Made by a program: the position numbers and the translations under genes. A stretch of DNA of 64,000 nt from positions 355,310-419,309 of the forward strand of contig CAITGV010000001.1 of assembly GCA_903892035.1 (NCBI GenBank). Reading direction: 5' to 3'. The notes under the pieces are model-generated. The model did not search any database. It saw only the letters and a list, made by a program, of their open reading frames with translations, and was not told the DNA's origin. Source of the stretch: an uncultured bacterium. GTDB taxonomy: Bacteria > Patescibacteriota > Minisyncoccia > Phycocordibacterales > UBA9973. Position 1 is the stretch's first letter. Each line of letters opens with the position of its first letter. Of the stretch, positions 35,249 to 59,073 are shown piece after piece.

Positions 35249-35716
35249 ATGAAAAAAAGACCAAATTATGATCTACTACACCTTTTAACTTGGGTAGTAG
35301 CTGTGCTGGCAACTGTAACTATTGTTGTCGACTATCTCTTTAATGCAAGAGCAGACATGATATATTATTTTCATGTTGCAATTGTGTGTTTAACTTCTAT
35401 ACAACTTTGTTATAATTTTGCCTTTGTTTATCTCAGAAGGCTAAACTTATCACAATTACTTTTTTGGATTTTTCTCGGATTTTTAACAACATCAATTGCA
35501 ATGAAATTCTGTGATGACATTATTGGTAATGTTGAAGTCAAACTTCAACATATAATCAGTTTTTGTTTGCCAGTATTTATTTCAATGTGTGCATATTGTT
35601 ACTCTTACCGAAAAAGGATTTCAAAAAAATTTTGGGAGTGGTTAAACGATAGTACTTTTTGGGAGAATTACAATGCTCTTCCTAAGGGTTGTCCGATACC
35701 GTACATTTACTATTAA
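35249..35716 (+). CDS. hypothetical membrane protein
   Basis: 155-aa ORF with 4-5 TM helices. Confidence 0.35.
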   Translation: MKKRPNYDLLHLLTWVVAVLATVTIVVDYLFNARADMIYYFHVAIVCLTSIQLCYNFAFVYLRRLNLSQLLFWIFLGFLTTSIAMKFCDDIIGNVEVKLQHIISFCLPVFISMCAYCYSYRKRISKKFWEWLNDSTFWENYNALPKGCPIPYIYY

Positions 35717-44400: not shown

Positions 44401-44693
44401 AACAACAAGTTTCTGGTTCAGTAAACTATGTTCTTAAGGCAACAGTTGGAGGTGCTCTTGCAACAGCAGACTATGTAAGTACAACTATCCCATCAAACAC
44501 TGCGTCATTTGTGGCTTCAAACACATATTCGACAATTGCGGGTAGTCCATCAACATACACAAACTATGGAACAACTCCATCATTTGTATGGTCTGATGTT
44601 TCAGCTGCTAGTCACGATACTACAACATCTGACTGGTCAACTGATTACCTAGTTCGCTCATTGCCACTTGATTCACAAACTCTTACAAAATAA
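41472..44693 (+). CDS. large secreted surface protein with N-terminal peptidoglycan-binding domain
   Basis: Signal peptide, a PG_binding_1-like segment (GSTGEAVKQLQ...MKYQTAHGLPSTGLVGPMT), then roughly 900 aa of Thr/Ser/Val/Gly-rich beta-type repeats. GC is higher than in neighbouring genes. Confidence 0.6.
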   Translation: MLKTKIAKAILGFVAMLMLVVGFSANAYTFTAPNLMKGSTGEAVKQLQMVLNATPATQVATSGAGSPGMETMYFGGATKTAVMKYQTAHGLPSTGLVGPMTRAVLNGTQVVVQGNCPTGFHTVTPVAPTFAACAADVANQSGPVTVAMASDSPASGSVVSPSTGAVFAKYTFTGNGTVTSMSFKRTGISSNTSLTNIYLYDGATRLTDGFSLNSDNTATFANISGLFTVSGTRTISVVADVTGSDYSIGLDLTSITSGGVVSPVSVVGNVQYVAVVSNPATVDFGTVTPTGGSIDPAHDVVVFNSNVNVGTRDVTLTRLAMRQIGSVNTSDIANFRLMIDGTTVSTVATMDMNGYVTFALATPKVLTTGTRVFKVLADVNAGSSRTFQFSIRNKTDIGIMDTQYNAGVAATFNSSNFPASSVAATSINSGSVTVQKASDSTSGNVTLNGHDVVLARYSLTTYGESLKIETILAGFTSSNGSVGSLRNGRIMINGSQVGSTATLLKVGSGGTSFTTNYTLAAGQPATLEIRADLYDNDGTNDLAISDTVTGRLMVPGSANTQRLSSLGYITVPASYYDGNALSVQSAASLTMAKTSTYSAQTTAVPQTQSYKVASYSLSGNNVEDVNLDTVSVDFTAVSGTTFTSADLTDVTLKIDGTVIGSPKSTVTATGNSYSITKVLPKNGTMNIELWATIGSTITATNSIKATTTVSGVGASSSVASSTGAVDGQVITANSGSITATTDASRPDASMNDDSGTKTMAAFKFAAVTDSYTVTDLTFTVADVTTVSQMSLYDGTTLIAQKTAAGTTTFSGISWPIPAGTSKILTVKLDLGTVGVGNGSTGASTLVTLTSGLATNGAGTNAAITQSNPAGTAQYTFKAIPTLTTVTLPTTSLVAGTNTLAKFSVNTNGTGTVGWNRIVLNVTKTDHPTLSTFTLWNADSNTQIAGTFIVHDTANVASCIATDGSGDTCRLGFVPGTEQQVSGSVNYVLKATVGGALATADYVSTTIPSNTASFVASNTYSTIAGSPSTYTNYGTTPSFVWSDVSAASHDTTTSDWSTDYLVRSLPLDSQTLTK

Positions 44694-44717
44694 TAGTTTA
44701 GGCTTCATGTAGTAATA

Positions 44718-44796
44718 GTTTCTCGATTCTTAAAATTGAAAGTCTGGTTGACTTAAATCACCAACAAAAAAGCACCCTTCACCGGGTGCTTTTTTG
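44718..44796 (+). repeat. cassette-boundary direct repeat DR1 plus terminator hairpin
   Basis: AGTTTCTCGATTCttaaaatTGAAAGTCTGGTtGACTtAAATCACCAACAAAAAAGC, then hairpin gcacccttcaccgggtgc and a T-run. Copies also at 46827 and 47478. Confidence 0.65.
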
Positions 44797-44822
44797 CTTG
44801 CCAAAAATTAAAATACCCTCGT

Positions 44823-44841
44823 GTTGAAGTTTGACTTCAAC
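44823..44841. repeat. REP-like hairpin GTTGAAGTTTGACTTCAAC
   Basis: 7-bp stem and 5-nt loop. Further copies at 44860-44876, 45068-45085 (inside the RAYT ORF) and an inverted copy at 45610-45628. Confidence 0.6.
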
Positions 44842-44897
44842 AAAAAGTAATTAAAAACTGTTGAAGTTTGACTTCAGTGGTGATAATATTTATGTAT

Positions 44898-45608
44898 ATG
44901 AGAAAAGAACAATTTGGTGTTGACTCTATAATTCATGTTTATAATCGTGGAAATAGAAAACAAAAAATAGTAATAGATGATAATGATCGGTGGCATTTTT
45001 TACAGATACTTTTTTATTTTAATGACGAATTTTCTCCAGTGAATCCATTCCGCACACTAAGGGAACTGTTGAAGTTTGACTTCAGCAGTAAACTTATCTG
45101 GCCAGATGAATGGCCAGAAAGAAATAAACTTGTAAATATTGTAGGTTTTTCATTGAAAGATAATCATTTTCATTTAATTATTCAGGAAATTAAAGAAGGA
45201 GGAACAACAAAATTTATGAGGAAGTTTGGTACTGGAATGACAAATTATTTTAATACAAAATATAAAGAAAGAGGAAAACTTTTTCAGGGTTCATATAAAG
45301 CAAGATTGGTTGATACAGATAATTATTTAAAATATTTAAGTGTATATGTTCAAGTAAAAAATGTTATTGAAATGTATTCGGGTGGGTTAGAAAATGCAAT
45401 TTTAAATTTTGATCATGCTTATCAATTTGCAATAGATTATAAATACGGAAGTCTTGGTTCACAAATTTTACAAAATCTTGAAACAGATAAAATTCTTGAT
45501 AATCACATACTGGTTGATCTTTTTAAAAGTGGAGAGTATAAAAAATTTTCAAAAGAATGTTTAACATTTGTAATTTTTGATGAAAAAAAATCTCAACTTG
45601 TATATTAG
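44898..45608 (+). CDS. REP-associated tyrosine transposase (IS200-like Y1 HUH)
   Basis: N-terminal HVYNRGNRKQKIV, HUH motif HFHLIIQ, and the catalytic Tyr region GKLFQGSYKARLVDTDNYLKYL. Flanked by inverted REP hairpins. The track ORF starts at TTG 44868 inside a REP. Confidence 0.6.
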   Translation: MRKEQFGVDSIIHVYNRGNRKQKIVIDDNDRWHFLQILFYFNDEFSPVNPFRTLRELLKFDFSSKLIWPDEWPERNKLVNIVGFSLKDNHFHLIIQEIKEGGTTKFMRKFGTGMTNYFNTKYKERGKLFQGSYKARLVDTDNYLKYLSVYVQVKNVIEMYSGGLENAILNFDHAYQFAIDYKYGSLGSQILQNLETDKILDNHILVDLFKSGEYKKFSKECLTFVIFDEKKSQLVY

Positions 45609-45609
45609 T

Positions 45610-45628
45610 TGTTGAAGTCAAACTTCAA
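45610..45628. repeat. REP-like hairpin, inverted copy (GTTGAAGTCAAACTTCAAC)
   Basis: Exact reverse complement of the 44823 element, lying immediately after the RAYT stop. Confidence 0.6.
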
Positions 45629-45639
45629 CGGAAACTTCA

Positions 45640-45739
45640 ACAGAATACATATGTCCGCCTATGGGGAAATGCATGCGGTTTTCGGTAGAAAACCGCATGC
45701 GTAGTTTACCAGTTTGTATTACGTTGATATAATTAATCA
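45640..45739 (+). ncRNA. conserved structured leader upstream of MazF-like gene (copy 1)
   Basis: Contains hairpin GCATGCGGTTTTC-ggtag-AAAACCGCATGC (45671-45700) and the palindromic gttgatataattaatcaa just before the ATG. A paralogous copy lies at 46237-46351. Confidence 0.45.
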
Positions 45740-46123
45740 ATGAAAGATTTTGATAATTGGAACAAAGAAAAACAATATATAAATAACTTAAATCACCACC
45801 CCTACTGTGCTATTCGAGAAATATGGTGGTGTTCATTGGGAGTAAATGTGGGTGTTGAGATTGATGGAAAAAATGGAAAATTTGAAAGACCAGTTCTAAT
45901 TTTGAAATATTTAAATAAAGACATGGTATTAGTAATACCACTTACAACAAAAAATAAAAATGATAAAAATCATATTCAAATTGAAATGGAAGATAGGGTT
46001 TCTTTTGCAAAGATTTCCCAATCTAGAGTTATTAGCACGAAGAGACTTTTAAGAAAGATAGATATGTTGCCAGAGGGGGAATTTGTGGAGGTCAAGAAAA
46101 AATTTATAGAATTTCTTTCATAA
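45740..46123 (+). CDS. MazF/PemK-like toxin-fold protein
   Basis: REIWWCSLGVNVGVE..GK....RPVLILK....MVLVIPLTTK pattern of the PemK/MazF family, with a 25-aa N-terminal extension. Confidence 0.6.
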   Translation: MKDFDNWNKEKQYINNLNHHPYCAIREIWWCSLGVNVGVEIDGKNGKFERPVLILKYLNKDMVLVIPLTTKNKNDKNHIQIEMEDRVSFAKISQSRVISTKRLLRKIDMLPEGEFVEVKKKFIEFLS

Positions 46124-46136
46124 ACATCGAAACCCC

Positions 46137-46160
46137 CTTGCGGGGGTTTCTCGGAGGCCG
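46137..46160 (+). terminator. terminator hairpin after MazF-like gene 1
   Basis: gaaacccccttgcgggggtttc immediately after the stop. Confidence 0.55.
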
Positions 46161-46236
46161 AAGCCGTCAATACATATATAATATATTTTTTAAATTAATT
46201 GTCAACTGTTTAAAATCCGCACAAGTCAGGCTTGTG

Positions 46237-46351
46237 CGAAGGAAAATACATATGTCCGACCTATGGGGGAACTGCGTGCGGTTTTCGGTAGAAAACCGCA
46301 CGCTGGATTATTTATTTTTGTAAATTATCATAGTGTTGATATAATTAATCA
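46237..46351 (+). ncRNA. conserved structured leader upstream of MazF-like gene (copy 2)
   Basis: Same hairpin as copy 1 with an A>G / T>C compensatory pair (GCGTGCGG...CCGCACGC, 46274-46303), plus an upstream hairpin CGCACAAGtcaggCTTGTGCG (46208-46228). Confidence 0.45.
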
Positions 46352-46738
46352 ATGAAGGATTATATTAACTGGAATAAAAAGAAAATTCAAATTGACGAAA
46401 TAAAAAACAGACCATTTTTTCACGAAAGAGAAATTTGGTTTTGTCATCTGGGTGTTAATGTTGGGTTTGAGCAAGATGGTTCAAATGATGAATTTTTAAG
46501 ACCTGTTGTTATTGTGCGGAAGTTTAATAACAGTATATTTTTGGCAGTTCCACTAACTCGAACAAATAAGAAGAATCAATTTTATTTTCAGTTTATTTTT
46601 AATGAAAATGAAAAAAGTACAGCTATTTTATCTCAGATCAAGCTTATTGATGGTAGACGATTAAGTTATAAAATTGGTGATATTTCAGAAATAGATTTTA
46701 TTGAACTAAAGAAAAAACTCAAGGCTTTGATACCTTGA
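46352..46738 (+). CDS. MazF/PemK-like toxin-fold protein (paralog)
   Basis: REIWFCHLGVNVGFE..GS....RPVVIVR....IFLAVPLTRT. Paralogous to 45740..46123, including the N-terminal extension MKD.(D/I)NWNK. Confidence 0.6.
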   Translation: MKDYINWNKKKIQIDEIKNRPFFHEREIWFCHLGVNVGFEQDGSNDEFLRPVVIVRKFNNSIFLAVPLTRTNKKNQFYFQFIFNENEKSTAILSQIKLIDGRRLSYKIGDISEIDFIELKKKLKALIP

Positions 46739-46826
46739 GTTTTTTCCATTTATACCTCCACCAAAGGTGGAGTCGGGCCGAGGCCATTTGTATTTACACT
46801 TTATCAAATAGCAAAGATAAAGTCAA

Positions 46827-46900
46827 AGTTTCTCGATTCTAAATCGAAAGTCTGGTCGACTCAAATCACCAACAAAAAAGCGGTAGGCAAGACCTACCGC
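46827..46900 (+). repeat. cassette-boundary direct repeat DR2 plus terminator hairpin
   Basis: AGTTTCTCGATTCTAAATCGAAAGTCTGGTCGACTCAAATCACCAACAAAAAAGC, then hairpin gcggtaggcaagacctaccgc. Confidence 0.65.
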
Positions 46901-46965
46901 TAAAATCCGCACAAGTCAGACTTGTGCGAAAGGAAAATACATATGTTCGACCTATGAGGAATTGC
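46901..46965 (+). repeat. truncated third copy of the MazF leader
   Basis: aaaatccgCACAAGtcagaCTTGTGcgaaaggaaaatacatatgttcgacctatgagg matches the start of leader copy 2, then diverges into the relB/relE cassette. Confidence 0.5.
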
Positions 46966-46997
46966 GTAATATCTATTTTGTGTGGTATAGTAATGAT

Positions 46998-47219
46998 ATG
47001 AATACGTTGATAAAAAAAATCAATATTGGAACCCTCGAGGATAAACCTGTGGTTATGATGTCTGCAGATATTTGGGAAAAAATGCAAGCAAAATTTCTTG
47101 AAATGCAGGAGGATTTAGAAATGTATACTTCTAAGACATACAAGAAGAGTATTACTCGCGCAAGAAATTCTAAGAAATTTTTTACTAGTTCTGAAGCACG
47201 TAAAAAACTAGGTTTATAA
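46998..47219 (+). CDS. antitoxin (RelB/DinJ- or Phd-like) of RelE/ParE pair
   Basis: Small acidic/basic protein immediately upstream of the RelE-like gene, separated by 3 nt. The start could also be 46962. Confidence 0.45.
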   Translation: MNTLIKKINIGTLEDKPVVMMSADIWEKMQAKFLEMQEDLEMYTSKTYKKSITRARNSKKFFTSSEARKKLGL

Positions 47220-47222
47220 TAT

Positions 47223-47477
47223 ATGCGTTATCTTATTACCGAAGAAGGTATAAGAACTTTGTTGCAATTGCCAAAGTCTGTGCAAAGAAAAATTCTAGAT
47301 AAATTAGATTATATTTTTGAAACCGAAAACCCGTTTACATACTCAAAAAAATTAAATCATTTTGAATATGGAGATTATCGAATGAGAATAGGGGACTATC
47401 GTGCATCGTTTGATTTAAAAAATAATACGGCATATTTTTTAAAGTTTGGACATCGCAAAGATTTTTATAAGAAATAA
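47223..47477 (+). CDS. RelE/ParE-family toxin
   Basis: C-terminal YRMRIGDYRASFDLKNNTAYFLKFGHRKDFY, typical of the RelE/ParE fold (R..DYR...F, GHRKD.Y). Confidence 0.65.
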   Translation: MRYLITEEGIRTLLQLPKSVQRKILDKLDYIFETENPFTYSKKLNHFEYGDYRMRIGDYRASFDLKNNTAYFLKFGHRKDFYKK

Positions 47478-47562
47478 AGTTTCTCGATTCAAAATCGAAA
47501 GTCTGGTCGACTCAAATCACCAACAAAAAAGCACTCCGACCTAGGTCGGAGTGCTTTTTTTT
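47478..47562 (+). repeat. cassette-boundary direct repeat DR3 plus terminator hairpin
   Basis: AGTTTCTCGATTCAAAATCGAAAGTCTGGTCGACTCAAATCACCAACAAAAAAGC, then hairpin gcactccgacctaggtcggagtgc and a T8 run. Confidence 0.65.
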
Positions 47563-47636
47563 GTGTAATATTTTTGATTAAAATACGGCTTTAGTTTTAT
47601 AGGTCAAATTTATTATCAATTTAATTATTTAAATTT

Positions 47637-48143
47637 ATGGGACAAAAAACTACAAATAGAACAGCATGGGCGATTATTGTTGTAGCAATTTTGGCAGTAG
47701 GGGCGTATTTGATATTTAATAAGTCAGCTGTAAATCCAGTAGCGACAGATAGTATTTCAGACAATACAAACACAGTAGCTGATACTATCACAAATCCAAC
47801 CAATGAACCTGAATCTGTGCAGGATACATCGGGGCAGACAGGTGGTGTTGCGCCAGTGACTCTATCTTATGCAAATGCTTTGATAAAGTATGCAGACAGA
47901 AGGATCCAACTTAATGCAACTTGCCAAGCATATCCGTACAATGTTACATACAAAGACAATACAGGTATTATGATATACAACAGGTCTCCAAATACTCGCA
48001 CAGTGAAGGTGGGAACGACATTTACTATAAAACCTTGGGGATTTAGGATAGTTGTTCTTCCTGATATATATCTAAAATCAAAGACTATTTTGGTAGATTG
48101 TGACAAAATGCAAAACGTAGCGACGATATTGGTCCAAGAGTAG
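47637..48143 (+). CDS. hypothetical membrane-anchored protein
   Basis: N-terminal TM helix (AWAIIVVAILAVGAYLIF), then a Thr-rich linker and a C-terminal domain. Confidence 0.4.
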   Translation: MGQKTTNRTAWAIIVVAILAVGAYLIFNKSAVNPVATDSISDNTNTVADTITNPTNEPESVQDTSGQTGGVAPVTLSYANALIKYADRRIQLNATCQAYPYNVTYKDNTGIMIYNRSPNTRTVKVGTTFTIKPWGFRIVVLPDIYLKSKTILVDCDKMQNVATILVQE

Positions 48144-49109: not shown

Positions 49110-49276
49110 TGACTTTTGTATTTTATCGTGTAATATATCAATATACGCTGTAGACAGCAGGTATCCCGAGCGTTAGTCGAGGGAACAAATCCTGCCGAGG
49201 TTACTCAAAAATCATTTTTGATTTTGATACATCTGACCGCGTAGGTCGATTTTTTATTTTTATATTAAAAAATATT
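49110..49276 (+). promoter_or_regulatory. rplJ promoter and ribosomal protein L10 leader-type 5' UTR
   Basis: TTGACT-17-TAATAT at 49110-49138, then a roughly 140-nt GC-containing untranslated leader before rplJ. This is the usual position of the L10 autoregulatory leader. Confidence 0.45.
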
Positions 49277-55192: not shown

Positions 55193-55396
55193 CAGAACGA
55201 TCATTCATTAATAAATAAATCCTGTTGCACACAAAAATTATTTCTTCCAAAGTAAGAATTTATTTTTTATTTTGGTGGGTCTTTGAGCCGTGTGTAAACA
55301 GAACCTCGAAGTTTTTATTTTTTTCGCCAAGCGGTTGGTATCAGAGAAATAAAAACTTCGAAAAACGAAAATTGTGATTTTTAAATTTCCTAATAG

Positions 55397-58850
<3,454 letters not shown>

Positions 58851-58963: not shown

Positions 58964-59073
58964 GTTTTGGTGGTTTAACGCTAGGGTCACACCTTTTCCC
59001 ATTCCGAACAGAGAAGTTAAGCCTAGTAGTGGCGATGATAGTCTTTTAGGCAAAAGTAGCTAGCCGCCAGAAC
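58964..59073 (+). rRNA. rrf: 5S ribosomal RNA
   Basis: ...CCCATTCCGAACAGAGAAGTTAAGCC... with helix I pairing TGGTGG/CCGCCA. About 110 nt, lying about 110 nt after the 23S. Confidence 0.8.

What the first reader, a model, noticed from the sequence alone, without database searches (positions are those of the whole stretch)
45640..46760. Two paralogous MazF/PemK-like genes, each preceded by a conserved structured RNA leader, with no protein antitoxin
The genes at 45740..46123 and 46352..46738 encode paralogous proteins with a MazF/PemK-like core and a shared N-terminal extension. Neither has an upstream MazE/PemI-type ORF. Instead each is preceded by a conserved non-coding module of about 100 nt: tacatatgtccg(c/a)cctatgggg, a 13-bp hairpin, then gttgatataattaatcaATG. 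Between the two copies the hairpin differs by a compensatory pair (GCATGCGG...CCGCATGC versus GCGTGCGG...CCGCACGC), while the short ORFs across it are out of frame with each other. That argues for selection on RNA structure, not on a peptide. The arrangement could be an RNA antitoxin of a type III-like system (ToxN shares the MazF/Kid fold), or a cis-regulatory autoregulation element bound by the MazF-like protein. Copy 2 carries an additional upstream hairpin, CGCACAAGtcaggCTTGTGCG.
Basis: partly seen in the sequence, partly recalled or inferred. Interest (0 to 1): 0.7.

Follow-up and report, generated by a model that had tools for sequence, protein, structure and literature searches.

The report
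MazF toxins paired with antisense sRNAs

Summary
The sequence facts are real. There are two MazF/PemK genes (45% identical), neither has an upstream antitoxin ORF, and both share a roughly 90%-identical upstream module with a 13-bp hairpin.

That module is not a leader and is unlikely to be an antitoxin:
- It lies upstream of an extended -10 promoter that ends 6 nt before each ATG, so the mRNAs are probably leaderless.
- It is absent from about 90 homologous loci, including a syntenic ortholog of gene 2 at 84% identity.
- A partial third copy precedes an unrelated RelB/ParE-like pair.

The non-coding partner that is conserved lies downstream on the opposite strand. It has a sigma-70-type promoter at fixed spacing and would give an RNA of about 52 nt: 5'-AUUA-N, hairpin P1 (GGC-UUCG-GCC), linker UCCGA, then a GC-rich terminator hairpin that ends at the toxin's stop codon.

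- A covariance model finds it antisense at the 3' end of the gene in 83 of 84 loci and nowhere else.
- Covariation is strong (178 double-change cells against 51.5 in shuffles).
- No Rfam 15 family matches it.
- Gene 2 carries a distinct variant that is shared by its own subfamily.

The best reading is a solo MazF toxin with a convergent small-RNA antitoxin. It most resembles a type I system, possibly related to CjrA on Campylobacter pVir. Direct binding of the RNA to the protein is not excluded.

The parts
45740..46123 (+). MazF/PemK-family toxin gene, subfamily A (127 aa), with a conserved N-terminal helix extension
   Evidence: PF02452 E 6.6e-14. A family profile hits MazF/EndoA structures at E 1e-4. 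The AlphaFold2 model has pLDDT 80, and the 50 best Foldseek PDB matches listed are all MazF family (MazF, YdcE, MoxT). R50 is invariant and T69 nearly invariant in the family alignment; they align with the Arg and Thr that I recall as catalytic in MazF.
46120..46171 (-). Predicted antisense small RNA, type A, about 52 nt. 5' AUUGAC; P1 GGC-UUCG-GCC (46156-46165); linker UCCGA; P2 terminator hairpin (46129-46150); U-rich tail that abuts the stop codon at 46121-46123.
   Evidence: Covariance model R1 scores it 72.2 bits, E 1.3e-16. Minimum free energy -22.6 kcal/mol, z -3.05. A minus-strand terminator-like site is reported. The transcript ends are predicted, not measured.
46178..46205 (-). Promoter of small RNA A: TTGACA, 16 nt, TATTAT
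   Evidence: Matches 11 of 12 consensus positions, the best promoter-like site in 44600-47700. The position is conserved: the -10 box ends 20-21 nt before CTCCGAG in 51 of 66 loci.
46352..46738 (+). MazF/PemK-family toxin gene, subfamily B (128 aa)
   Evidence: PF02452 E 3.4e-10. It has its own set of more than 1100 homologs, the 120 best at 57-84% identity.
46740..46791 (-). Predicted antisense small RNA, type B. 5' ACAAAU; P1 GGC-CUCG-GCC (46776-46785); linker CGA; P2 CUCCACC-UUU-GGUGGAG (46756-46772). It has no U-tract, so the 3' end is uncertain.
   Evidence: Weak hit to R1 (16.7 bits, E 0.24). The same architecture is conserved in subfamily-B loci L095 and L097-L099, with compensatory changes in P2. 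Minimum free energy -16.6 kcal/mol, z -2.0.
46798..46826 (-). Promoter of small RNA B: TTGACT, 17 nt, TAAAGT, with TG before the -10 box
   Evidence: The spacing to P1 matches that in the other type-B loci.
45705..45733 (+). Promoter of toxin gene A (TTTACC, 17 nt, TATAAT, TG-extended). The -10 box ends 6 nt before the ATG, which implies a leaderless mRNA.
   Evidence: The leaderless start is inferred; the transcription start was not measured.
46318..46345 (+). Promoter of toxin gene B (TTGTAA, 16 nt, TATAAT, TG-extended). The -10 box ends 6 nt before the ATG.
45646..45700 (.). Upstream module, copy 1: box TACATATGTCCGCCTATGGGG plus the 13-bp palindromic hairpin at 45671-45700. It lies upstream of the -35 box.
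   Evidence: No counterpart was found outside this genome.
46218..46303 (.). Upstream module, copy 2: hairpin CGCACAAGTCAGGCTTGTGCG (46218-46238), box (46247-46268), and the 13-bp hairpin (46274-46303), which is followed by a T-rich tail.
   Evidence: The scan reports it as a plus-strand terminator-like site.
46908..46959 (.). Upstream module, copy 3 (partial): hairpin plus box only, in front of the RelB/ParE-like pair.
46998..47477 (+). Neighbouring two-gene cassette (73 aa and 84 aa). It looks like a RelB/Phd-type antitoxin with a ParE/RelE-type toxin, but the scores are weak.
   Evidence: PF05016 E 0.005, PF02604 E 0.17.
44823..45629 (+). IS200-like Y1 transposase gene of the REP-associated (RAYT) kind, ORF 44868-45608, flanked by perfectly inverted 21-nt hairpin sequences at 44823-44843 and 45609-45629.
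   Evidence: PF01797 27.2 bits against a cut-off of 23. Inverted repeat I4 is 100% complementary. Further copies are listed.

Best explanation
**What it is.** Each of the two genes encodes a solo MazF-fold endoribonuclease toxin. Its partner is not a protein and not the upstream module. The partner is a small RNA of about 50 nt encoded just downstream on the opposite strand.

**How the small RNA is made.** It has its own sigma-70-type promoter and is transcribed back toward the toxin gene. It folds into a 3-bp hairpin (P1) with a YUNR/UUCG-type loop, then a near-invariant 5-nt linker (UCCGA in type A), then a GC-rich hairpin (P2). In type A, P2 is an intrinsic terminator that ends at the toxin's stop codon.

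**How it most likely works (inferred).** The RNA acts as the antitoxin. Most probably it pairs with the complementary 3' end of the toxin mRNA, which has no terminator of its own there and should read through the small-RNA gene. Pairing would lower the stability or expression of that mRNA, as in type I systems. A contribution from direct binding of the RNA to the toxin cannot be excluded.

**The toxin mRNA.** The toxin mRNAs are probably leaderless. They would start at the ATG from a TG-extended -10 promoter.

**The upstream module.** It is shared by three adjacent cassettes of a low-GC island next to a REP-associated (RAYT-like) transposase. Its 13-bp hairpin most plausibly insulates each promoter from read-through transcription, or serves as a symmetric operator.

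**Shown.** The conserved element, its strand, its structure, its promoter, and its one-to-one linkage to the gene.

**Inferred.** That it is transcribed, that the protein is toxic, and that the RNA neutralises it.
For: - **Linkage.** Model R1 finds the element in 83 of 84 homolog loci (86 hits in 405 kb). Every hit is antisense and lies at or within about 100 nt of the 3' end of the MazF-like gene, and there are none elsewhere. In the 64-kb window the only hits are the two gene ends.
- **Structure.** 94.8% of cells pair, against 70.9% in shuffles. There are 178 double-change cells against 51.5. 12 of 13 pairs show compensatory changes. No shuffle out of 500 reaches these values, and the slid controls collapse.
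- **Strand.** In 66 distinct loci the best sigma-70 match reaches at least 10 of 12 in 43, against 2 of 66 in shuffled sequence. The -10 box ends 20-21 nt before CTCCGAG in 51 of 66. The U-rich tail and the GNRA-type P2 loops appear only when the minus strand is read.
- **No protein partner.** No conserved upstream ORF exists. Upstream contexts are heterogeneous, including tRNA genes and the ends of housekeeping genes.
- **RNA type tracks protein clade.** Subfamily B (gene 2) has its own variant, GGCUUCGGCC-CGAC-stem, in all 5 loci examined. The P1 swap from GGC/GCC to GCC/GGC is confined to one or two protein clades.
- **The toxin looks active.** It has the MazF fold, and it keeps an Arg and a Thr/Ser that align with the MazF catalytic pair (the identity of that catalytic pair is from memory).
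- **Precedent.** N-extended homologs on Helicobacter, Nitratiruptor and Campylobacter pVir plasmids show the same downstream antisense layout, with compensatory hairpin changes between L104 and L106. On pVir an antisense RNA, CjrA, is reported to be a type I antitoxin (PMC10470494, PMC7826846).
- **Against the upstream module.**
Against: - There are no expression data. The transcription start, the 3' end and even the existence of the small RNA are predictions.
- Toxicity of these proteins is untested.
- Pure antisense pairing does not explain why the unpaired parts (AUUA, UCCGA, GAU) and P1 are nearly invariant while the proteins fall to 45-50% identity. That pattern suggests recognition by a protein.
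- Type B lacks a U-tract after P2, so its 3' end is unclear.
- The window's own type-B copy scores only E 0.24 with the type-A model.
- In one close homolog locus (L081) an HTH_3 gene lies directly upstream, so some members may also have a protein regulator.
- I could not confirm that the pVir toxin CjpT is the MazF homolog, because the paper is not held.
Confidence: 0.6

Rival explanations
1. The same downstream small RNA is the antitoxin, but it works at the protein level, like a type III system. The structured RNA would bind the MazF-like dimer as a pseudo-substrate or inhibitor, through P1, the UCCGA linker, or both, and sequester it. Overlap with the toxin mRNA would be incidental.
For: - P1 and the single-stranded segments keep a near-invariant sequence across a family whose proteins are only 45-50% identical, while the P2 stem varies freely.
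- RNA variants track protein clades: type A against type B, and the P1 swap.
- A second tandem copy of the small RNA lies further from the gene in L010, L038 and L064.
- The family has an extra conserved N-terminal helix rich in Lys and Trp that could add an RNA-binding surface.
Against: - There is no repeat array and no sign of processing sites.
- The layout is that of convergent type I systems.
- The only experimentally described relative I could trace, CjrA, is called type I (PMC10470494).
- The loop variants UUCG, UUAG, UUUG and CUCG fit the YUNR loop that I recall from antisense RNAs.
- No binding data exist.
Confidence: 0.2
2. One reading: the conserved upstream module is transcribed, and it acts as an RNA antitoxin or as a cis-regulatory leader bound by the MazF-like protein.
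For: - The three blocks are about 90% identical between the two copies although the proteins are only 45% identical.
- The 13-bp hairpin has one compensatory pair and a strongly negative folding z-score (-3.5 and -4.8).
- Weak promoter-like sites (9 of 12) exist upstream of both copies.
Against: - The module lies upstream of the -35 box of a strong extended -10 promoter that sits 6 nt from the ATG.
- It is absent from every homologous locus examined, including the ortholog at 84% identity in the same genomic position.
- The core box has no match in the metagenome contigs, and the hairpin hits there are unrelated.
- A partial copy precedes a different toxin-antitoxin pair.
- One compensatory pair between two copies is also what a symmetric protein-binding site or a terminator would show.
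Confidence: 0.05
3. The downstream element is not an antitoxin. It would be a conserved 3' structure or terminator with a convergent promoter that only tunes or blocks transcription, and the MazF-like protein would be a non-toxic housekeeping RNase of Patescibacteria that needs no antidote.
For: - The family is very widespread in reduced CPR genomes and often sits among housekeeping genes such as mreB, pheS/pheT and rplJ.
- No toxicity data exist.
- PADLOC gives no defence-system match.
Against: - The promoter points at the gene, with no ORF in between.
- A terminator alone does not need an invariant P1 hairpin and linker.
- The residues that align with the MazF catalytic pair are retained.
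- Homologs ride on plasmids and prophages, as addiction or defence toxins typically do.
- Paralogs co-occur with distinct RNA variants, as expected if cognate pairs are insulated from each other.
Confidence: 0.12

Closest known systems
CjrA/CjpT type I toxin-antitoxin system of Campylobacter jejuni 81-176 plasmid pVir (Shen et al. 2016, Mol Microbiol 101:909; known to me only through citations in PMC10470494 and PMC7826846)
   Same: - pVir carries an N-extended PemK/MazF homolog of this family with no adjacent annotated antitoxin gene.
- A GC-rich hairpin follows its stop codon, and an antisense TG-extended -10 promoter lies about 100 nt downstream.
- CjrA is described as an antisense small-RNA antitoxin on pVir.
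- The stretch downstream of the pVir gene also occurs on small plasmids that lack the toxin. This fits the report of cjrA hits without a toxin (PMC7826846).
   Different: - I could not read the paper, so the identity of CjpT with the MazF homolog is unverified.
- Model R1 does not detect the Campylobacter RNA, so the RNAs share no detectable sequence with the CPR element.
- The protein is only about 30-35% identical.
Convergent type I systems of Gram-positive bacteria, such as bsrG/SR4, txpA/RatA and yonT/SR6 (from memory; yonT/SR6 also PMC5848175)
   Same: The toxin gene and the small-RNA gene face each other and overlap at their 3' ends. The small RNA has its own promoter downstream of the toxin gene.
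   Different: - Those toxins are small hydrophobic peptides, and their RNAs are 100-220 nt and poorly conserved.
- Here the toxin is a 127-aa MazF-fold RNase.
- Here the RNA is about 50 nt, and its sequence is conserved in 79 of the 80 species-level loci examined, nearly all Patescibacteria.
Type II MazEF/PemIK
   Same: The toxin is the same kind of protein: a Pfam PF02452 match, the MazF fold, and an Arg and a Thr/Ser that align with the MazF catalytic pair.
   Different: There is no MazE/PemI gene or any other conserved upstream ORF. The protein has an extra N-terminal helix. A conserved antisense RNA gene takes the place of a protein antitoxin gene.
Type III ToxIN/CptIN/TenpIN (PMC3401426, PMC5086642)
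   Same: An endoribonuclease toxin is paired with a non-coding RNA and has no protein antitoxin. Direct inhibition of the protein by the RNA is not excluded here.
   Different: - There are no tandem repeats.
- The RNA is downstream and on the opposite strand, not upstream on the same strand.
- The toxin is a MazF, not a ToxN/AbiQ-family protein.
Rfam 15 families, including the pemK RNA motif of Weinberg et al. 2017 (its existence in Rfam is from memory)
   Same: A structured RNA candidate associated with pemK-type genes.
   Different: No Rfam family matches the element. This holds at E up to 10 in the window and at E up to 0.1 in 12 loci. The only match on the element in those scans is a below-threshold one to Pseudomonas P9 (E 0.07).

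Membership tests
MazF/PemK toxin superfamily (PF02452) | Sequence match to the family profile above the curated cut-off | tested here: met
   52.5 and 40.5 bits against a cut-off of 23.1. The family profile hits MazF/EndoA PDB chains at E 1.3e-4.
MazF/PemK toxin superfamily (PF02452) | MazF/Kid SH3-like barrel fold | tested here: met
   The AlphaFold2 model has pLDDT 80.2 and pTM 0.76. The 50 best Foldseek PDB matches listed are all MazF family (MazF, YdcE, MoxT), with E down to 4e-7 and TM-scores of about 0.65-0.7.
MazF/PemK toxin superfamily (PF02452) | Catalytic Arg and Thr/Ser retained | tested here: met
   R50 is invariant and T69 nearly invariant in 30 sequences. They align with the RPV and T/S motifs of EndoA/MazF. 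Which residues are catalytic in MazF is from memory.
Type II MazEF/PemIK operon | Co-transcribed protein antitoxin gene next to the toxin gene | tested here: not met
   No MazE/PemI-like ORF is present in the window. The upstream same-strand ORFs of 81 homologs form no cluster larger than 2.
Type III toxin-antitoxin (ToxIN, CptIN, TenpIN) | Antitoxin is an array of tandem direct repeats upstream of the toxin gene on the same strand | tested here: not met
   Tandem Repeats Finder reports only three trivial low-copy repeats in 44600-47700. The conserved RNA is single-copy, downstream and antisense.
Type III toxin-antitoxin (ToxIN, CptIN, TenpIN) | Toxin belongs to the ToxN/AbiQ, CptN or TenpN families | tested here: not met
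   Pfam gives only PemK_toxin. The 50 best structural matches listed are all MazF family.
Type III toxin-antitoxin (ToxIN, CptIN, TenpIN) | The RNA binds and inhibits the toxin protein | not testable with these tools
   This needs EMSA, co-purification or a rescue assay.
Type I toxin-antitoxin | Cis-encoded antisense RNA gene that overlaps the toxin transcription unit | tested here: met
   By prediction only. There is a conserved antisense promoter, and a terminator that ends at the stop codon. In some loci the ORF runs through the small-RNA gene.
Type I toxin-antitoxin | Small hydrophobic membrane peptide as the toxin (typical of the type, not universal) | tested here: not met
   The toxin is a soluble MazF-fold protein of 127-128 aa.
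Type I toxin-antitoxin | RNA-RNA pairing controls translation or stability of the toxin mRNA | not testable with these tools
   This needs experiments.
Any Rfam 15 RNA family | Covariance-model match | tested here: not met
   Nothing at the gathering threshold. Nothing meaningful at E up to 10 over 45500-47700, or at E up to 0.1 in 12 loci.
REP sequences with a REP-associated transposase (RAYT), considered for the upstream module and its hairpins | Y1 (HUH) transposase flanked by inverted hairpin repeats that also occur dispersed in the genome | tested here: inconclusive
   The transposase gives a weak hit (27.2 bits; NCBIfam REP_Tyr_transpos E 0.04). The flanking 21-nt hairpins are perfectly inverted. 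Only 5 copies occur in 64 kb. The module's own hairpins differ in stem sequence.

The most novel reading that the evidence does not exclude
A large clade of true MazF-fold toxins has replaced the protein antitoxin MazE with a roughly 50-nt structured RNA that binds and inhibits the toxin protein directly. This would be a hybrid of type I layout and type III mechanism. The clade comprises subfamilies A and B in Patescibacteria, with relatives in Campylobacterota and some Bacillota. The invariant P1-UCCGA segment, which contains CCUCC, the core of the anti-Shine-Dalgarno sequence, would act as a pseudo-substrate that mimics the toxin's natural RNA target. The toxin itself would be made from a leaderless mRNA.
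Probability: 0.2. Interest if true: 0.85.

Novelty: new variant of a known kind. Interest (0 to 1): 0.62.

Why it matters
MazF is the textbook type II toxin, defined by its protein antitoxin MazE. If a whole clade of MazF toxins is instead controlled by a dedicated small RNA, the link between toxin family and antitoxin type is looser than current classifications assume. The scale is large: 473 confirmed loci among species-representative genomes, and about 930 and 1160 protein clusters (at 90% identity) for the two subfamilies.

It would also give Patescibacteria (CPR) a defined, conserved small-RNA family; I know of few others. The small-RNA gene has a recognisable promoter, a predicted start and a terminator, so it can be tested directly in E. 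coli.

Annotation pipelines now label these genes "type II toxin-antitoxin system PemK/MazF family toxin". That label is probably wrong about the type. The small RNA is not in Rfam, and none of the annotated records I looked at lists an RNA feature there.

Tried and rejected
- **Peptide antitoxin in the upstream module.** Rejected. The two copies differ by two 1-nt indels, so no frame is shared, and the module is absent elsewhere.
- **Type III repeat array.** None found.
- **Known RNA family.** Rfam gives nothing at the gathering threshold or at relaxed E-values.
- **Upstream module in other genomes.** blastn against 80 loci finds nothing. The exact core-box pattern has 0 hits in the metagenome contigs. 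The hairpin pattern has 8 hits, all in unrelated contexts.
- **Integron-like cassette array.** I considered this because of the repeated junctions (D1 repeat, hairpin, box). I did not pursue it. There is no integrase in view, the junction resembles an attC site only loosely (GTTGATA against the consensus GTTRRRY, from memory), and the ortholog locus explains the island more simply as an insertion.
- **Known defence system.** PADLOC gives no hit.
- **Small-RNA core as a copy of part of the 23S or 5S rRNA genes in the window.** The only match within 3 mismatches is the element itself.
- **Identity of CjpT.** I tried to read Shen et al. 2016, but the paper is not held and no open paper describes CjpT.
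- **Supplement of Weinberg et al. 2017, for the pemK motif.** Not held.
Full report
**1. The observation**

The two ORFs are at 45740-46123 and 46352-46738. Both match Pfam PemK_toxin above the curated cut-off, and they are 45% identical.

Their upstream regions align in three blocks of about 90% identity:
- a box, TACATATGTCCG(A)CCTATGGGG;
- a perfect 13-bp hairpin, at 45671-45700 and 46274-46303, which differs between the copies by one compensatory pair;
- GTTGATATAATTAATCA directly before the ATG.

Shuffled sequence gives no such matches. Two single-base indels put every short ORF across the module in different frames in the two copies.

**2.

A third, partial copy lies in front of a different two-gene cassette at 46998-47477, which has weak RelB/ParE-like scores. 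This copy has the hairpin CGCACAAGTCAGACTTGTGCG and the box, but not the 13-bp hairpin.

In copy 1, the position of the extra hairpin is taken by GTTGAAGTCAAACTTCAAC. This is one of two perfectly inverted 21-nt sequences that flank an IS200-like Y1 transposase gene of the REP-associated (RAYT) kind at 44868-45608.

The whole stretch from 44.8 to 47.6 kb has lower G+C than its flanks (0.25-0.35 against 0.37-0.40). It is bracketed by three copies of a 57-nt direct repeat, each followed by a terminator hairpin.

**3. The module is not a 5' leader**

In both copies a TG-extended -10 box (TGaTATAAT) ends 6 nt before the ATG, and a -35-like hexamer lies 16-17 nt upstream of it. A transcript from this promoter would start at or next to the ATG. 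The 13-bp hairpin and the box lie upstream of the -35 box.

The same arrangement recurs in the family. Among 84 distinct homolog starts:
- a strong -10 hexamer ends exactly 6 nt before the ATG in 14, against 0-4 at every other spacing;
- 41 have a -10-like hexamer ending 5-9 nt before the ATG;
- only 6 have a Shine-Dalgarno-like core.

Leaderless expression is inferred, not measured.

**4. The module is not conserved with the gene**

The family is large: 930 protein clusters for gene 1 and 473 confirmed loci among species-representative genomes, nearly all Patescibacteria.

- blastn of the three module copies against 80 such loci finds nothing. Their upstream regions are unrelated to one another: ends of housekeeping genes, tRNA genes, other ORFs.
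- Close homologs of gene 1 at 71-74% identity have different upstream sequence.
- The best test is L095/L096. This is an 84%-identical ortholog of gene 2 in the same genomic position, between the large PG_binding_1 protein and rplJ. It has no trace of the module.
- The box has no exact match in the metagenome contigs. The hairpin pattern hits only eight unrelated sites.

The module is a young, lineage-specific repeat shared by adjacent cassettes. The 13-bp hairpin of copy 2 is followed by a T-rich tail and scores as a terminator-like site. My best guess is that the hairpins shield each promoter from read-through transcription. A symmetric operator remains possible. One compensatory pair between two copies cannot tell these apart.

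**5. What is conserved: a downstream antisense element**

Reading the close homolog loci showed that the sequence right after the stop codon is conserved, with compensatory changes.

Read on the strand opposite to the gene, the consensus runs as follows:
- TTGACA, about 17 nt, TATAAT or TATACT, about 6 nt;
- then A-UUA-N, GGC-UUCG-GCC, UCCGA;
- then a GC-rich stem of 9-13 bp with GNRA-type loops;
- then GAU and a U-rich tail that ends at the complement of the stop codon.

In the window, copy A is:
- promoter 46205-46178 (11 of 12 consensus positions, the best promoter-like site in the region);
- predicted start at A46171;
- P1 at 46165-46156;
- P2 at 46150-46129;
- tail reaching the TAA at 46123-46121.

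**6. Statistics for the element**

- *Structure.* In an alignment of 67 sequences (A3), RNAalifold predicts P1 and P2, and 12 of 13 pairs show double changes. 94.8% of cells pair, against 70.9% in shuffles. Double-change cells number 178 against 51.5. The covariation score is 0.579 against 0.158. No shuffle out of 500 reaches these values, and all slid registers collapse. The P1 swap (GGC/GCC to GCC/GGC, and UCC/GGA in Lactococcus) rests on only two or three independent events.
- *Promoter.* The promoter reaches at least 10 of 12 in 43 of 66 loci, against 2 of 66 in shuffled sequence. The -10 box ends 20-21 nt before CTCCGAG in 51 of 66.
- *Linkage.* A covariance model (R1) finds the element in 83 of 84 loci. 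Every hit is antisense and lies at or within about 100 nt of the 3' end of the gene, and none lies elsewhere in 405 kb. L010, L038 and L064 have a second tandem copy. In the 64-kb window the only hits are 46111-46181 (72 bits, E 1e-16) and 46735-46801 (16.7 bits, E 0.24).
- *Known families.* No Rfam 15 family matches the element.

**7. Gene 2 and its RNA**

Gene 2 belongs to a separate subfamily, with 1163 clusters whose 120 best members are 57-84% identical to it. Its downstream element is a distinct variant:
- promoter 46826-46798;
- start at A46791;
- ACAAAU, GGC-CUCG-GCC, CGA;
- CUCCACC-UUU-GGUGGAG, GUA.

The same variant occurs in L095 and L097-L099: A(C/U)AAAUGGCUUCGGCC-CGAC-stem-GGUA, with compensatory changes in the stem. 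The two window genes therefore represent two old toxin lineages, each with its own RNA type. Paralog pairs in other genomes (L012, L029, L048, L051) likewise combine one canonical element with one divergent element.

**8. The protein**

A family profile reaches solved MazF/EndoA chains at E 1e-4. The AlphaFold2 model (pLDDT 80, pTM 0.76) has the MazF barrel plus an extra N-terminal helix at residues 4-16. The 50 best Foldseek matches listed in the PDB are all MazF family (MazF, YdcE, MoxT), with no ToxN or AbiQ among them. An Arg and a Thr/Ser that align with the MazF catalytic pair are conserved (the identity of that pair is from memory). No conserved upstream ORF exists in 81 loci. One close homolog locus has an HTH_3 gene directly upstream.

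**9. Mechanism**

The shown facts are these: a MazF-fold gene with no protein partner, and a one-to-one linked, structured, promoter-bearing antisense element.

The inference is that the element is a small RNA of about 50 nt that serves as the antitoxin. Arguments for each mode of action:

| Mode | Arguments |
|---|---|
| Antisense (type I-like), favoured | The convergent 3'-overlap layout. The toxin gene has no plus-strand terminator, so its mRNA should read through and be fully complementary. In some loci the ORF runs through the small-RNA gene. All observed P1 loop variants (UUCG, UUAG, UUUG, CUCG) fit YUNR, the loop motif I recall from antisense RNAs, better than UNCG. |
| Direct protein binding (type III-like) | The near-invariance of AUUA, P1, UCCGA and GAU, which pairing alone does not require. 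RNA type tracks protein clade. |

I therefore give the general claim (small-RNA antitoxin) 0.6. Direct protein binding, as a separate rival, gets 0.2.

**10. Relatives outside Patescibacteria**

tblastn finds N-extended homologs on plasmids of Campylobacter, Helicobacter and Nitratiruptor and in Campylobacter CJIE4 prophages. Their downstream regions show the same layout. An antisense extended -10 box is followed by two or three hairpins that end at the stop codon, with compensatory changes between two Helicobacter plasmids. Model R1 does not detect these RNAs.

C. jejuni 81-176 pVir carries such a gene with no annotated neighbour antitoxin. An antisense small RNA, CjrA, is reported as a type I RNA antitoxin on that plasmid (PMC10470494, PMC7826846). 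The stretch just downstream of the pVir gene also occurs on small plasmids without the toxin. That matches the report of cjrA hits without a toxin. I could not read the original paper, so whether CjpT is this MazF homolog is unverified. I think it likely.

**11. Verdict**

The real feature is a convergent small-RNA gene coupled to solo MazF toxins. It is conserved across Patescibacteria, absent from Rfam, and in the two records where I saw the annotation (L018, L054) was not among the listed features only by inference, since I did not fetch annotation for them; the annotated Campylobacterota and Lacticaseibacillus records I did fetch list no RNA feature downstream of the gene. I rate it a new variant of a known kind: type I-like control, with one probable experimental precedent in Campylobacter.

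The main limits are the absence of any expression or toxicity data, and the rough E-values of the briefly calibrated model.

Noticed in passing
window 55391-58850: The 23S rRNA match spans 3460 nt against a model of 2925 positions, so the gene carries about 0.5 kb of insertion(s). A 5S gene follows at 58966-59072. No 16S gene and no tRNA gene lies anywhere in the 64 kb.
   Followed up: no
window 44823-45629, 35531-35549: An IS200-like Y1 transposase gene of the REP-associated (RAYT) kind is flanked by perfectly inverted 21-nt hairpin sequences. Further copies lie at 44860, at 45068 (inside the transposase ORF) and at 35531 (inside a membrane-protein ORF).
   Followed up: partly
window 44717-44773, 46825-46881, 47476-47532: A 57-nt direct repeat, each copy followed by a terminator hairpin, brackets and subdivides the low-GC island that holds the transposase and the three toxin cassettes. 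A relative (L095) has only the gene-2 ortholog at this site. The pattern looks like serial insertion at one site.
   Followed up: partly
window 46998-47477: A two-gene cassette (73 aa and 84 aa) has only weak Phd/RelB and ParE/RelE Pfam scores. It shares the upstream hairpin and box with the MazF-like genes, and it also has a -10-like box (TATAGT) close to its ATG.
   Followed up: no
L010 2953-3029, L038 2959-3034, L064 2941-3011 (and L007): Some loci carry a second, tandem copy of the antisense small-RNA gene further downstream of the toxin gene.
   Followed up: no
L081 3771-4462 (protein P0004): In this close homolog the ORF has lost its stop codon and reads through the whole small-RNA gene, giving 153 aa. 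An HTH_3 (XRE-type) gene sits 14 nt upstream. It is the only locus seen with a plausible protein regulator.
   Followed up: no
L102 1888-1986; plasmids NC_004997.1, NZ_CP084081.1, NZ_CP048773.1, NZ_OY754861.1: The roughly 100 nt just downstream of the pVir MazF-like gene, which is the predicted antisense RNA region, occurs at 93% identity on small Campylobacter plasmids that lack the toxin gene.
   Followed up: no
L054 2492-2941 (Lactococcus taiwanensis NBRC 109049): A cultured Bacillota species carries a family member (46% identity) with the canonical antisense element. Its P1 is changed to UCC-UUCG-GGA. It could serve as a tractable experimental host.
   Followed up: partly
window 49130-49265: A ribosomal protein L10 leader (RF00557) scores exactly at the gathering threshold (44.1 against 44), upstream of the expected rplJ position.
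   Followed up: no
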